Shown here one piece after another: positions 20,368 through 25,753 of a DNA stretch of 64,000 bases. The notes beneath the pieces were generated by a model. The model had not been told where the DNA came from. It saw only the letters and a program-made list of their open reading frames with translations, and searched no databases. Origin of the DNA: Cladosporium halotolerans (taxonomy: Eukaryota); contig NW_027191457.1 in NCBI RefSeq assembly GCF_011745625.1, forward strand, positions 806,001 to 870,000, read 5' to 3'. The position numbers and the translations under genes are program-made. Position 1 is the stretch's first letter, and each line of letters starts with the position of its first letter.

Positions 20368-21392
20368 CTAGGCGAAGATGGGGACGTTGATGCCGTACTA
20401 CACGAATCAGTCAGCAAAAGATCCAATATTTCTCCACTCTTGCACGGAAGAAAACTCACGTTCGTAGGGTTGTTGAACCTCAGCCCCTTATCCAGCCCGT
20501 TGATCTTCTCGATCTCCTCCTTGGTCAGATCGAAGCTGCACACGTCCAGGTTCTGCGCCAGGCGCGCCTGGTTGTTGCTCTTGGGGATGACGGCGACGCC
20601 GCGCTGCGTGCTCCAGCGCAGCAGGACCTGCGCGGGCGACTTGCCGTGCGCGTCGGCGATGGACTTGATCGCGTCGTGCTCGAAGAGCAGCGGCGTGTCG
20701 TGCGCCTTCTGCATGTTCAGCTCGAGGAAGGACAGCGGGCCGAAGGAGCTGTAGGCCGTCACGGCGATGCCGCGCTCCTTGCAGAGCTTGAGGAGGGGCT
20801 CCTGGGTGAGGTAGGGGTGGTGCTCGATCTGCAGGGCCTGCGGGAGGTGCTTGGCGTAGCGGAAGAGGTCGAGCAGCAGCGCACCGTTGTAGTTGCTGAT
20901 GCCGATGGACTTGATGAGGCCGGCGTCGTAGAGCTCCTCCATGGCGTGGTAGGTCTCCTCGAGCGTGGCGGAGCCGAGCTCGAGCTCGTCCTTCTCGTTG
21001 AAGAAGCCCGGCGGGTAGCGCACGGAGGGATCGACGTACTTGAGAGCGATGGGGAAGTGGATGACGAACAGGTCGAAGTAGTCGACGCCCCAGTCGGCCA
21101 GCTGCTTCTTGCAGATGGGCCCGACGCGCTCCTTGTCGTGGAAGGAGTTCCACAGCTTCGAGACGATGAACAGGTCCTCGCGCTTCACGATGCCCTCGTC
21201 GATGGCGCGCTTGACGCCCTGCCCGGCCTCGACCTCGTTGCCGTAGTCGCAGGCGCCGTCGAACAGGCGGTAGCCGGTCTTGATGGCGTTGTAGACCTGG
21301 TCGGCGCAGGTGTCGTTGTTGACCTTCCACAGGCCGAAGCCGACAATGGGCATCTCGCGGCCATTGTTGAGCTTGACGTTGGGGGCGGACAT
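20368..21392 (-). CDS. XYL1: NAD(P)H-dependent D-xylose reductase (aldo-keto reductase); intron 20398-20459
   Basis: [28 protein letters not shown] and IPKS motifs; [15 protein letters not shown] after splicing; strong C/G third-position bias. Confidence 0.95.
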
Positions 21393-21848
21393 TTTGGCGG
21401 CGGTAGCGAGGTGTCTGGTAATGTTCTGCTGTCTTGTGGGAGTGATGGGCGCTGGTCGTAGGTGGTTGGTGACGAGAGCAGTACGCCTTATGGGAGCGTG
21501 GGAGTGAGGACGGAGGGAGGAGAGGACGGCAGATCTGAGCGAAATAATAAGCAAGCGATCAGCAGTGAACCAAGGCGGCGGCGGGAATTGTTTCTTATAG
21601 GCACGGCGGAGAGTTTGTTCTAGACCCGAAAGGAGCCTTACCTGAAGAGCGGGATGGAGGTGTTTGGTGGCATGGCGCGACAGGCAGAGGCTCACGCGCA
21701 CGCAGCAAAAGGCCCGTTTCTGCCGCCGGCAACGGCGCGTGGCGTGGTATTATGTAGTGCATGGCCGTGCCGGGTGATTGCGCCGTGGGTCTATACCTCG
21801 ATTGTCTGGCGGGAGCTGCGCAAGACCAAGGGCACGGCGATGGCCAAG

Positions 21849-21980
21849 GTGGGGCGACTCCCCGCGACCCCACCATCCGCCTCTCCATTGGAGTCGCGCG
21901 CACATTCAGGCGGCACACGGCGGGTAAAATGCAACCTCAGACTTAGGGTTTGCTGTTTTGCCTGCGCACGGAAGGGCTAG
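21849..21980. promoter_or_regulatory. Clustered CreA (SYGGRG x3) and XlnR (CGGNTAAW, GGCTAG) motifs upstream of xylose reductase
   Basis: GTGGGG 21849, CCCCGC 21860, CCCCAC 21868, CGGGTAAA 21921, GGCTAG 21975; TATA-like TATAAG on the minus strand at 21599-21594. Confidence 0.55.
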
Positions 21981-22567
21981 GTACCACGCGGTGCGCCGCT
22001 GGGATGCATCGATTGCCGACTCTGCAGGGCATTTGAGTGGCGCAAAAGTACTTTGGACGAGTTTCAGGAACAGGCTGAGTCGGGTCAAACGAGGCCGAGG
22101 ATGTCAATCATTCAATTAGGACGCACTATTATCCGGTGCTGTCATCAGGGTTATGCTATGTATGCTTTCGTGGTAGTTATGCTTCCCATGCAAACAGTTA
22201 ATCAGAGGCTACTGCTCATTGCATGATCAGTTCTTCGGAACCGTCAATGCAGCCTCGCAGTCTTCTCGTCAGTTTCCATCATCCAAGCCTTTCCGCAGCT
22301 TGTTCATCCATTTCTATACCATTTCCCAAAAAAAGAAAGAAGCAAACAATTGTTACAACAAAAGAGCCGCCAAACGAACCACCTCCTTCGAGTTCGAGAC
22401 AAATGCTCGTCAGTCAACGTTACAACGAACCCACCTGTTGCGCTGTCGATGAGCGCGATAGCATCCAAAGAGTCGGAGACGTCACCTTTTCCAGCGCTGA
22501 GAGATACTCGATTACCTTAGAGGTTGTCGTCAAAGCCTTTCTGTCCAGCTTAATGATATGGATCAGG

Positions 22568-25500
22568 CTATCCATGACGATCCTCAGGAGCGAAAGCGGT
22601 AGGTGAAAGGGACTCACTGTTTCCCGGACCCGAGTTTGGCGTGGACGGACTTGGCTCGCTGCTGCGCTGGTTGAACATCGCGCGCACTTGAGCCTCCAAG
22701 CGCTGCTGGATGCGCTCCTCGAGTTGAGCGAGGGCGGCCTGGTGAGACCCTGTCTGCTGGTCTTGCATACCTTGGAGCATAGACATGATTTGCTCCAGCT
22801 TGTCCGTGCTCGGCCTGTTCCTCAAATCGTGCTGTGGAGCCTCACCATAAGATGCAATACCAGTATCAATAGGAGCCGGAATACGACCCTGCCTCTGCGG
22901 CCCCGGAACAGCAGCGACATGCGAAGTGCCCGCATGGTAAGCAACACGCGCAGCTCTGCGGTCGTATCTGTTCGGCGGTGAGAGAACATCAGCCTGGGGT
23001 ACAACCGGATCGCCAACAACCGGCGACAAGCCGTGACTGAACGTCGCCTGCTCCGGCCCCGAACCAATCTGCGGACTGCCCGCATGAAACGCCGTCCTCG
23101 CAGCCTGGCGGTCGAACTTGCTCGGCTTCGGCTGCTGCTCCTCAACGCTCTGCGCAGCTGCGACTGGGGACGGGCTGCGCTCGAAACTCGGCGCAATCTC
23201 AGTGCACATGACCGGCGACAAGCTGCGTGCGCCACCCCTAGACAGGTCCTGCTGCGGCCAAGCGGGACTCAGCGTGATCGTTGGCGTTGGAGTAGTTGTG
23301 CCAGAAGCTGGTGATGTGCCGCGCGCATACTTCACGGGCTCCGGAGTGCCGAGACTAGAATCCAGCGTCGAAACAGCGCTGCGCACATTCTGTGACAGTG
23401 ACGGGCGGCCGTCGAAGGGCCTGTCGGCGTAGCGGGCTCTGTGCGAAGAGCCCATGCTGGGAGCCGAAGTGGACAGCTGTGGCTGGGGTTGGGACATGGT
23501 GTCTTGAGCCAAAGCGTGCTTGGTCACTGGCAACCCTGTGCTCCTATGGCTCTCGATGCGTCCACGGCTGCGCGACGGCGTAGTCGTCGTCTCACCGCGT
23601 GCCGCCATAGCCTGATCCAGCGCCTTCGCTTTCGGCGGCGTGTACGCCACAGCGGGCAAAATGTCCAGCGGCGAGGGAGCCGCGCTCGGGTGCTCGAAAG
23701 TCGGACGCGAGAGGGACGGAGCGGTGTCGAGCGGGTTGGTCTTCGTTTTCGAGGCCGAGGGGCTGGAGCGGTGGGTTGGCGAGCTCCTCTTTGGCGGGCT
23801 CGTGCGGCGCTCGTGGGCGAGGTTGCTCCTTGAGGACGCTCTAGTGTGGGAGCTGGCGCGATGGTAAGTGCTGGACACCTGTCTACTGCTCTCCCTAGCG
23901 GGGATGACTAAGTTCGTCCTCGAGGGATCCGACGCGAGATCCGGGTACACGAGCGGGATGGTGCCCTCGGTGGAAGAACTGTATTTTGTGTTGAAAGAAG
24001 CCTTCGCAGACGTCGGGTGGTACTGTGAGCGGAGCGAAGGTGAGCGCTTGATGACATTGCTTGGAGAAGGCGACGCGCGGCCGCTGAGCTCGGCCCTAGT
24101 GCTCCAGCAGTCTTCGGAGTAGATGCTCGGAGAGTAGTAGGTGATCTTCGGGTCGCGGTTGCAGACGCCTTCGGGCAGCTTGGTGAGGCCCTCGAGGCCG
24201 AGACCGTCGGTGCGCTTTTTCATTTCTTGCAGCGAATATTGCTCTTCGAGGTCGGGGTAGAAGGACGCGTGCATGGAGTAGACGCTGGGCTGCTTGACGA
24301 GCCTGGGGACGTCTTTGTGTGCATAGCCGCCTGTCTTGGTCGGGCTGACTCGGCCGTCGACGCCCTTGAGCTTGACGGTCTGGCGGGTAGGAGTCTCTTC
24401 TTCATCTTCGTCTTCAAAGATGTGTTGGTGGAGCGGTGACGGAAGCTTGGAGGAAGGCTTGTGCTGAGCCATGTGCTCCCGTGGCGTGAGCTTGCGGGTG
24501 ACTTCTTTGATGCGCCGCTCCGCGCTCTGCTGATGATGCTCCATGATTCTACGAGACTCTTCTTGGGCCTTGAGCTCCTTCTCATGCGGCGGAGTATTTT
24601 TAGCTGGTGGAGTCGGAGGCGCGGCGCGGTCGAAGTACTGCAGGCTCTGGGTGCGAGCGACGCCGCAGGTGCTGTTATCTTTCTTCTGGTGAGCGCTAAC
24701 GCCACCCGCATCTGAGTGCGTCTCGGAAAATGCTCGCTTCTCCTTCACCTGCCGATCGTAAGACGGATCGGAGAAAGCAGTATGAGCAGTCTTAGGAGTC
24801 TTGTTGGAAGATTCCAGAGAATGAGCGGTGCGAGCGCTGGCTGACAGCGCGCTGCGAGCCTCACTGTCACCCGACCTGCGAGAAAGACTAGACTTGAAGC
24901 CGTCGAAGTGAGACTGCTCAGTCGTGATGCGGGAGAAAAGACCCTTCCTCTTGGAGGGCGAACGGGCGACGTTGGACTTGTGAGGTGAACTGCCCAGGAC
25001 CGCTTTTGGCTTCGGTGGGAGTGACTCTCCGCCACCGTAGCCGCGGCCTACTGCGGGCGAGGAGGTGGTACCTGTATTGTTATTGTTACTAGAGCGAGGG
25101 ATACTTGCCTTCAACTTCTCAAAAAGGCCCTTCTTGGGGCTCTTGGTCTGGTCACTGCTGCTGAGGCTCCAGTCGAGGACGCCGCCTCTCTTCTTCTTAT
25201 TAGGTGTTGCCTCTGTGTGACCGACCGACTTGCTGAATTCGGAAGTGCCGAGCTTGGGCGTGTACTTGTAAGTGCGGACAGGGGTGTGCTCTGTGTCAGT
25301 GCCAGATGCCTCGTGAATGTGTTGCTCACGTTCGTCCTCGATGATGCCGCGCCCGGTCGGGTGGGACTCGTCGCATTCTTCGGGGACTAGCTTGAGCGGA
25401 GGAGTGGGTGGAGGAGGGGGTGCCAGGTAATCAACATTGACGAACGGCGACAGGGTGGTGACACCGGAGTCACGTGTTGTGGTCATGTTGGAAGGGCTTT

Positions 25501-25753
25501 CGACGCGAAAACCTTGACGGAGAGCTGGGTGAAGAGCGGTGGGCGGTGTCACGCGCCTCGCCATCTCTTGCTGGTAGAAAGCGTTGCTCCGGAGGCGGTG
25601 TCTGTCGACGGCAGCGGCCTGCTGAGCGAAGGAGTTGGGTCCCGGTGTGATGGTGCGAGGAGGCGGCGGGTGCGCGGGTCCTGGCGATGCTTCCGGAATC
25701 TGAGGTAGTTGGTTCGTGGTTCGCCTGGGCGAGGTGGCGCGGTGGGGAGCCAT
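22568..25753 (-). CDS. Hypothetical Ser/Pro/Thr-rich disordered protein, 1061 aa, with short C-terminal coiled coil
   Basis: 3.2-kb uninterrupted ORF. A possible GTGAGT donor near 22617 may change the extreme C-terminus. Confidence 0.75.
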   Translation of the reverse strand: MAPHRATSPRRTTNQLPQIPEASPGPAHPPPPRTITPGPNSFAQQAAAVDRHRLRSNAFYQQEMARRVTPPTALHPALRQGFRVESPSNMTTTRDSGVTTLSPFVNVDYLAPPPPPTPPLKLVPEECDESHPTGRGIIEDEREQHIHEASGTDTEHTPVRTYKYTPKLGTSEFSKSVGHTEATPNKKKRGGVLDWSLSSSDQTKSPKKGLFEKLKASIPRSSNNNNTGTTSSPAVGRGYGGGESLPPKPKAVLGSSPHKSNVARSPSKRKGLFSRITTEQSHFDGFKSSLSRRSGDSEARSALSASARTAHSLESSNKTPKTAHTAFSDPSYDRQVKEKRAFSETHSDAGGVSAHQKKDNSTCGVARTQSLQYFDRAAPPTPPAKNTPPHEKELKAQEESRRIMEHHQQSAERRIKEVTRKLTPREHMAQHKPSSKLPSPLHQHIFEDEDEEETPTRQTVKLKGVDGRVSPTKTGGYAHKDVPRLVKQPSVYSMHASFYPDLEEQYSLQEMKKRTDGLGLEGLTKLPEGVCNRDPKITYYSPSIYSEDCWSTRAELSGRASPSPSNVIKRSPSLRSQYHPTSAKASFNTKYSSSTEGTIPLVYPDLASDPSRTNLVIPARESSRQVSSTYHRASSHTRASSRSNLAHERRTSPPKRSSPTHRSSPSASKTKTNPLDTAPSLSRPTFEHPSAAPSPLDILPAVAYTPPKAKALDQAMAARGETTTTPSRSRGRIESHRSTGLPVTKHALAQDTMSQPQPQLSTSAPSMGSSHRARYADRPFDGRPSLSQNVRSAVSTLDSSLGTPEPVKYARGTSPASGTTTPTPTITLSPAWPQQDLSRGGARSLSPVMCTEIAPSFERSPSPVAAAQSVEEQQPKPSKFDRQAARTAFHAGSPQIGSGPEQATFSHGLSPVVGDPVVPQADVLSPPNRYDRRAARVAYHAGTSHVAAVPGPQRQGRIPAPIDTGIASYGEAPQHDLRNRPSTDKLEQIMSMLQGMQDQQTGSHQAALAQLEERIQQRLEAQVRAMFNQRSSEPSPSTPNSGPGNSESLSPTAFAPEDRHG

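What the first reader, a model, noticed from the sequence alone, without database searches (positions are those of the whole stretch)
21393..21545. Cryptic non-AUG mitochondrial presequence in frame upstream of xylose reductase
Seen: between the TATA-like element (21599-21594) and ATG 21392 the frame is open with no AUG. From ATT 21545-21543 (A at -3, C at +5) it reads (M)[54 protein letters not shown]: 51 residues, 7 Arg, no Asp/Glu, ending in an RHLAT cleavage-like motif. Known: that composition typifies mitochondrial presequences, and near-cognate starts generate mitochondrial isoforms in yeast (e.g. GRS1, ALA1). Inference: a dual-targeted xylose/aldose reductase, an enzyme normally regarded as cytosolic. 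ATT 21548 and TTG 21554 are alternative starts.
Basis: partly seen in the sequence, partly recalled or inferred. Interest (0 to 1): 0.72.

Follow-up and report, generated by a model that had tools for sequence, protein, structure and literature searches.

The report
Hidden mitochondrial form of xylose reductase
A fungal sugar-reducing enzyme usually thought to work only in the cytosol has an overlooked first exon that adds what looks like a mitochondrial address tag, so one gene probably makes both a mitochondrial and a cytosolic form; it starts at a normal start codon, not the unusual one first proposed.

Summary
The presequence-like extension is real; the non-AUG start is not needed. RNA-type contigs of close relatives skip a 107-nt GT-AG intron (21641-21535) in 3 of 4 runs laid. 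That intron contains the proposed ATT 21545 and the 'TATA'. Splicing joins AUG 21673 in frame, giving a 58-residue extension (7 Arg, 1 Lys, no Asp/Glu, R-x-L/A cleavage-like end). AUG, donor and acceptor are invariant in 9 of 9 close sequences, ATT is shared by 0 of 8 relatives, and exon 2 evolves as protein (dN/dS 0.34). The same AUG exon plus phase-2 intron layout occurs in 21 of 37 scorable sequences (shifted-frame controls 0 of 37); 8 of 120 database homologues already carry AUG-started extensions. Some orthologues lack it. A TATA-like box sits inside this intron in 15 of 20 hand-picked loci versus 0 of 42 downstream introns, suggesting a second promoter for the cytosolic form from AUG 21392. 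Best reading: a two-AUG, dual mitochondrial/cytosolic xylose reductase. Import is inferred only; no localisation data, no TargetP. Known mechanism, new enzyme; I found no paper describing it.

The parts
21750..21756 (-). TACATAA, candidate core-promoter element of the long transcript (inferred)
   Evidence: motif scan; similar letters in most close relatives in alignment A1; not tested
21642..21673 (-). Coding part of exon 1: AUG1 at 21673 (context cgcgccATGc, G at -3), 10 codons [10 protein letters not shown] plus two letters of a split Arg codon
   Evidence: ATG invariant in 9 of 9 sequences; X6 contig has 0 differences over 21642-21689 and carries both splice joints
21535..21641 (-). 107-nt phase-2 intron 1 (GTAAGG...CTGAT...CAG); if retained, AUG1 frame stops at once (AGG TAA)
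   Evidence: joint 21534/21642 in X1, X4, X6; 100-108 nt at the same place in 8 relatives
21594..21599 (-). TATAAG inside intron 1, 65 nt above the acceptor; candidate promoter of a short mRNA lacking AUG1
   Evidence: TATAA in 9 of 9 close introns; TATA-like in 15 of 20 hand-picked 5' introns vs 2 of 118 flank windows and 0 of 42 3' introns; function inferred
21543..21545 (-).
21393..21534 (-). Exon 2 leader: last base of the split Arg codon and 47 codons of presequence-like peptide
   Evidence: lengths 133-142, all 1 mod 3 in 9 of 9; pN 0.151 vs pS 0.363; no D/E in frame in 9 of 9
21405..21416 (-). R-H-L-A, R-3-type cleavage-like motif (motif definition recalled: MPP then Icp55)
   Evidence: R-x-[YF] at the same place in 7 of 8 annotated extensions and RSFA in 8 of 8 close relatives
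20460..21392 (-). AUG2 (gccaaaATGt, A at -3) and xylose reductase core, AKR2B-like; D45, Y50, K79, H112, IPKSN at 269
   Evidence: yeast XR structures 1e-113 to 1e-116; PF00248
20398..20459 (-). 62-nt intron 2
   Evidence: spliced in 4 of 4 runs
20368..20397 (-). Last exon, 9 codons and stop; no PTS1-like end

Best explanation
One xylose/aldose reductase gene with two in-frame AUGs. A long mRNA starts above 21673; after removal of the 107-nt intron, AUG1 gives a 378-residue precursor whose 58-residue, Arg-rich, acid-free N-terminus acts as a cleavable mitochondrial presequence (shown: splicing, frame, conservation; inferred: translation, import, cleavage near R-H-L/A). The familiar 320-residue cytosolic enzyme starts at AUG 21392, most likely from a shorter mRNA driven by the TATA-like box inside intron 1 (my odds about 0.55), otherwise by leaky scanning past AUG1 (about 0.25) or by intron retention turning AUG1 into a short uORF (about 0.2); these can coexist. 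In the matrix the enzyme most plausibly reduces reactive aldehydes or aldoses with mitochondrial NADPH (inference from general AKR chemistry).
For: Splice joint in 3 of 4 runs, one contig bridging AUG1 to the stop. In-frame 58-aa extension. AUG, donor, acceptor invariant in 9 of 9. Exon 2 keeps frame and is under purifying selection, the intron does not keep frame. Layout in 21 of 37 scorable sequences, 0 of 37 in either shifted frame. mRNA-type contigs L018 and L030 carry the AUG-started long form. 8 of 120 database homologues have AUG-started extensions with 5-11 R+K, 0-1 D/E. Intronic TATA 15 of 20 vs 0 of 42; mRNA-type contigs L020, L021, L025 carry intron-1 letters while lacking the downstream intron. 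Same design is described for other fungal genes (PMC7049704, PMC9604717, bioRxiv 10.1101/2023.07.18.549460; passages).
Against: No localisation, proteomic or ribosome data; TargetP/MitoFates could not be run. The window's own extension is the least amphipathic of 9 scored (moment 0.44 vs 0.49-0.68) and has 8 Pro. Runs are flagged 'RNA?' and come from relatives, not this isolate; no contig of the 4 runs covers the intron interior 21554-21627, so the short or retained form was not seen there. 16 of 37 scorable sequences were negative by rule, and two close orthologues (L017, L019; 87% identity) have stops 3 and 6 codons above AUG2. The rule was shaped by loci seen, the loci include duplicates and close kin, and the 3' control introns are shorter than the 5' ones.
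Confidence: 0.75

Rival explanations
1. One reading: the mitochondrial form is made mainly from near-cognate ATT 21545 (or ATT 21548, TTG 21554) on an unspliced or intron-initiated mRNA.
For: The codons are in frame and ATT 21545 has A at -3. If the intronic TATA fires 35-46 nt downstream (distances from PMC9604717), a short mRNA would begin about 21564-21553 and contain them. Near-cognate starts of presequences are known in fungi (PMC7049704, PMC6582344).
Against: The codons are removed by splicing; ATT at that place in 0 of 8 relatives; 3 of 8 have a stop and no near-cognate codon after it; 1-2 nt indels in the intron tail; on a short mRNA ATT would lie under about 20 nt from the cap; a conserved AUG already does the job.
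Confidence: 0.06
2. The extension is translated but is not a matrix presequence (another organelle or membrane, a degron, or a regulatory leader).
For: Pro-rich, modest hydrophobic moment in this species; a conserved motif-like core (R.AALF, PIRRTAL) could have another role; no known matrix role for XR found in 4 searches.
Against: Composition, length (39-60) and the R-x-[YFL]-[SAT] end are kept across lineages whose extension sequences barely align, which is how presequences behave (own knowledge); no hydrophobic signal-peptide core; no PTS1 end.
Confidence: 0.13
3. The long form is the only or the main product and the enzyme is mostly mitochondrial in these fungi; AUG2 is a relic.
For: Only the spliced long form was seen in the 4 runs; AUG1 has a purine at -3 in the close group.
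Against: AUG2 is kept with a purine at -3 in 20 of 20 loci; intronic TATA conserved; relatives lacking the extension keep AUG2; pentose catabolism needs cytosolic XR (own knowledge); contigs drop minor or nested forms.
Confidence: 0.06

Closest known systems
Fungal dual-AUG / alternative-TSS dual-targeted enzymes (S. cerevisiae HTS1, VAS1, CRS1; Cryptococcus aaRSs, UVE1, SOD2, MAE102, IDP1)
   Same: Two in-frame AUGs separated by a presequence; long form mitochondrial, short form cytosolic; choice by start site or leaky scanning (PMC9604717, PMC7049704, bioRxiv 10.1101/2023.07.18.549460; passages read).
   Different: Here the cargo is a pentose-pathway aldo-keto reductase, the presequence is split by a conserved phase-2 intron, and the candidate second promoter lies inside that intron. 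Localisation is not shown.
Near-cognate-initiated mitochondrial or peroxisomal isoforms (yeast cryptic pool, PMC6582344 passages; fungal PGD, PMC7214817 listing only; GRS1/ALA1 recalled)
   Same: A targeting signal hidden in what gene models' UTR.
   Different: The start here is a conserved AUG in a missed exon, not a near-cognate codon.
Fungal NAD(P)H-dependent D-xylose reductases (AKR2B label recalled; PDB 1jez, 5z6t, 5zci; Aspergillus Xyl1/XyrA)
   Same: Core 70-83% identical to named filamentous-fungal XRs, best PDB matches are yeast XRs, catalytic residues and IPKSN present.
   Different: Extra 58-residue leader; Aspergillus-like loci L086/L088 and most database models have none. Substrate range not tested.
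Human AKR1B15 (PMC4519324, passages)
   Same: An aldo-keto reductase with splice isoforms, one found in the mitochondrial fraction.
   Different: There the short isoform is the mitochondrial, active one; different subfamily, no shared origin implied.
Yarrowia lipolytica MDH2 (PMC3372373, abstract)
   Same: Intron use decides the compartment of a metabolic enzyme in a fungus.
   Different: C-terminal, peroxisome versus cytosol, alternative 3' splice sites.

Membership tests
Fungal xylose reductase (AKR2B-like) | AKR domain with Asp/Tyr/Lys/His tetrad and IPKS cofactor motif; closest to known XRs | tested here: met
   (tetrad identity recalled)
Fungal xylose reductase (AKR2B-like) | Reduces D-xylose with NAD(P)H | not testable with these tools
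   needs assay
Non-AUG-initiated mitochondrial isoform | No in-frame AUG ahead of the presequence in the mature mRNA | tested here: not met
   AUG 21673 in frame after splicing
Non-AUG-initiated mitochondrial isoform | Near-cognate codon conserved in position and frame | tested here: not met
   0 of 8 relatives share the ATT; frame of intron tail varies
Dual-AUG dual-targeted gene | Two in-frame AUGs on a real spliced transcript | tested here: met
Dual-AUG dual-targeted gene | Both isoforms are made (short mRNA, leaky scanning or retention) | tested here: inconclusive
   intronic TATA and intron-bearing mRNA-type contigs in relatives; not seen in the 4 runs
Cleavable mitochondrial presequence | N-terminal, 15-60 residues, Arg/Ser/Thr/Leu-rich, no acidic residues, R-2/R-3 motif (definition recalled) | tested here: met
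   58 aa, 7 R, 1 K, 12 S+T, 0 D/E, R-H-L-A
Cleavable mitochondrial presequence | Amphipathic helix | tested here: inconclusive
   moment 0.44 here, 0.49-0.68 in 8 homologues, no calibrated threshold
Cleavable mitochondrial presequence | Drives import and is processed | not testable with these tools
   no predictor or experiment available

The most novel reading that the evidence does not exclude
A mitochondrial xylose/aldose reductase is an old, widespread and overlooked feature of many filamentous ascomycetes (Dothideomycetes, lichen-type fungi, some Eurotiomycetes), switched by a promoter nested in the intron that splits its presequence: pentose induction fires the intronic promoter for cytosolic catabolism, while the upstream promoter supplies a matrix enzyme that detoxifies carbonyls or couples matrix NADPH to polyol synthesis in stress-tolerant fungi, with repeated loss in lineages such as Aspergillus.
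Probability: 0.35. Interest if true: 0.68.

Novelty: new member of a known kind. Interest (0 to 1): 0.5.

Why it matters
Xylose reductase is the entry enzyme of fungal pentose use and a much-engineered biocatalyst; its cofactor balance is modelled as purely cytosolic. A conserved matrix isoform would change that bookkeeping, give mitochondria an aldehyde/aldose reductase, and show that most XR gene models in these fungi miss a first exon. The nested-promoter layout gives a simple, testable switch. The mechanism class is known, so the surprise lies in the enzyme and the depth of conservation.

Tried and rejected
Non-AUG start: rejected. Contig depth (X1 93 over the core vs 31 over the leader) was not used: contig depth cannot rank parts. 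No RNA holder on record was listed; the 14 'RNA?' rows are guesses, and I laid 4 of 24 rows. X11's contig stops at 21538, the last letter shared by spliced and unspliced forms: noted, not counted. A region search with the Cryomyces extension (37 hits of 40 candidates) found no new extended forms, so breadth outside the classes seen is open. One search set aside 44 of 81 sequences (23 with no start found by my pattern, 21 with under 300 nt upstream); its L031 hit uses a doubtful donor (by eye a different one), and it missed L082, L043-type and L047/L055 extensions seen by eye. XlnR-like GGCTAA/GGCTAG (recalled motif) not found on the minus strand of 21380-22200 except one reverse match at 21980. 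NCBIfam gave only sub-threshold bacterial AKRs; the extension has no Pfam match. Literature: searches for xylose reductase with 'mitochondrial targeting', 'dual locali' (19), 'subcellular localization' in filamentous fungi (24), Cladosporium (39) and TargetP/MitoFates (46), and for mitochondrial AKR isoforms (21), listed no paper on a mitochondrial XR (listings only); GRE3 does not occur in the main text of PMC6582344 or PMC12707816 (supplements not searched); four XR terms gave no hit in the one held supplement of PMC7049704. PMC11283233 concerns Pos5, not XR targeting. The library lacks most subscription papers, and bioRxiv supplements (e.g. the Cryptococcus altTSS table) were not seen. Earlier findings of the scan: none.

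Full report
Observation. The gene is a xylose reductase: PF00248, best solved relatives are yeast XRs, nearest named proteins are XRs of Cercospora, Pseudocercospora, Meristemomyces and other Dothideomycetes at about 76-83%. The host is an unnamed 27.9-Mb fungal assembly; a Cladosporium-like identity is my guess. The leader's composition is unusual: 2.2% of 5000 shuffles match it, and only this one of 19 long ORFs in the window has such a leader.

The missed intron. I laid 4 of 24 listed runs. They are flagged only as probable RNA, but all 4 lack the 62-nt intron 20459-20398, so they are spliced. Three (X1, X4, X6; three studies) also skip 107 nt between 21642 and 21534 with GT..AG ends on the minus strand; X11 stops at 21538. 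The skipped stretch has a GTAAGG donor, CTGAT branch site and CAG acceptor and holds the 'TATA' and all three proposed starts. After splicing, AUG 21673 is in frame: 10 codons, a split Arg codon, 47 codons, then AUG 21392, for a 378-residue protein with a 58-residue leader (7 R, 1 K, 12 S+T, 8 P, no D/E). One X6 contig runs from 21689 through both joints past the stop, with no difference over exon 1. The five listed strain differences in exon 2 add no stop or acidic residue. With the intron retained, AUG1 stops after 11 codons.

Conservation in close relatives. From 80 metagenome loci (best of 228), eight close genomic ones were aligned with the window: the AUG, donor and acceptor are invariant in 9 of 9. 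Exon 2 lengths (133-142) all keep frame while intron lengths (100-108) take all three phases; exon 2 shows third-position excess (0.17/0.14/0.33), pN 0.151 against pS 0.363 (dN/dS 0.34; enzyme core 0.022), and no D/E in frame in 9 of 9 against 2-3 in the +1 frame. The ATT is shared by 0 of 8; three relatives have an in-frame stop and no near-cognate codon after it. This settles the start as AUG.

Wider spread. A rule (AUG exon, GT-AG intron in phase 2 within an Arg codon, open frame, at most 1 D/E, at least 5 R+K), shaped by what I had seen, was met by 21 of 37 scorable sequences including the window and by 0 of 37 in each shifted frame; 44 of 81 could not be scored. The positives include four duplicate pairs and the close group, so independent lineages are nearer seven. 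Distant loci at 61-76% identity start with a recognisable exon 1 of the M-N-x-x-K/R-P-F-x-R type. Among 120 database homologues, 8 carry AUG-started leaders of 39-60 residues with 5-11 R+K and 0-1 D/E, including Cercospora beticola, Pseudocercospora fuligena, Cryomyces minteri, Aureobasidium and Rasamsonia emersonii; 7 of 8 end in R-x-[YF] just before the second Met. The other models start at AUG2 or later. mRNA-type contigs L018 and L030 show the long form. Against universality: 16 of 37 were negative by rule (some falsely), Aspergillus-like L086/L088 have no such leader, and L017 and L019 (87% identical) have stops just above AUG2.

How the short form may arise. TATAA lies inside intron 1 in 9 of 9 close sequences, 60-71 nt above the acceptor, and a TATA-like word in 15 of 20 hand-picked 5' introns, at 55-61 nt in three distant ones, against 2 of 118 flanking 100-nt windows and 0 of 42 downstream introns, which are shorter. 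With TATA-to-start distances of 35-46 nt reported for filamentous and basidiomycete fungi (PMC9604717; bioRxiv 10.1101/2023.07.18.549460), a short mRNA would start near 21565-21553, lack AUG1 and be read from AUG 21392, which has the better context (A at -3). Three contigs without the downstream intron carry intron-1 letters: L021 begins 15-18 nt above the acceptor, L020 begins above the TATA, L025 holds the whole intron; the first fits an intronic start, the others retention, and I cannot prove they are mRNA. Retention stops the AUG1 frame before AUG2 in 20 of 20 loci. None of the 4 laid runs covers the intron interior, so the short form is inferred. On such a short mRNA the ATT would be present but close to the cap, so a minor near-cognate contribution is not excluded.

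What it does. Shown: splicing, frame, coding constraint, presequence-like make-up across lineages. Inferred: translation from AUG1, import, cleavage at R-H-L/A (MPP then Icp55, recalled). The window's leader has the lowest hydrophobic moment of 9 scored (0.44) and no predictor could be run. A matrix role is speculative: reduction of reactive aldehydes or aldoses with mitochondrial NADPH.

Comparison. It works like the dual-AUG and alternative-start genes known in fungi (aminoacyl-tRNA synthetases, UVE1, SOD2, MAE102, IDP1; passages of PMC7049704, PMC9604717 and the bioRxiv paper). It fails the membership test for non-AUG isoforms (PMC6582344 passages). A mitochondrial aldo-keto reductase has a loose human precedent in AKR1B15 (PMC4519324 passages), and intron-decided targeting one in Yarrowia MDH2 (PMC3372373 abstract). 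Searches listed no paper on a mitochondrial xylose reductase; the library is incomplete, and some automated gene models already contain the long form.

Verdict. New member of a known kind; confidence in the dual-targeting reading 0.75; interest 0.5.

Noticed in passing
window 21730-21717 (minus); L011-L016, L026, L028, L029, L033, L062: A GCCGG(C/T/A)AGAA element about 45-130 nt above AUG1 is kept in 11 loci including two distant ones; the window has a variant. Possible transcription-factor site of the long transcript.
   Followed up: partly
window 21795-21790 (minus): GGTATAGAC(C/G)CA block conserved in most close relatives; a further TATA-like candidate.
   Followed up: no
L048, about 200 nt above ATG 689: This lichen-type locus lacks the exon-1 AUG that its near twins L043/L045 have but keeps the frame, donor and an in-frame GTG: recent loss, or a true near-cognate start.
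   Followed up: partly
L047 and L055, above ATG 1108 and 728: AUG-started leader in frame without needing an intron, ending RRLAT before the second Met; possible intron loss.
   Followed up: partly
L042:1-162: A more distant XR (different C-terminus, perhaps basidiomycete; my guess) has an Arg/Ser-rich open frame up to the contig end; the trait may reach beyond ascomycetes.
   Followed up: no
L017 and L019 leaders: Close orthologues (87%) with stops 3 and 6 codons above AUG2: apparent independent loss of the mitochondrial form.
   Followed up: partly
P0012, P0013 (Pseudocercospora musae): 90-residue N-terminal models that look like read-through of intron 1; P0001-P0007 are 365-423-residue calls that read through the last intron. 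Probably gene-model artefacts.
   Followed up: no
window 21538: X11's contig ends at the last letter shared by spliced and unspliced forms, as L024 begins 3 nt above exon 2; could mark an assembly branch between two isoforms.
   Followed up: no
window 22568-25753 (minus): 1061-codon ORF upstream with no Pfam or NCBIfam match; contigs of X1 and X4 reach from the XR leader to 22028 and 21830, so read-through or a long leader with several uORFs is possible.
   Followed up: no
G000:C317:198996-200040 (L002, L006): A second XR-like paralogue (52-58% identity) in the same genome; its start was not located by my pattern, so its leader is unchecked.
   Followed up: partly
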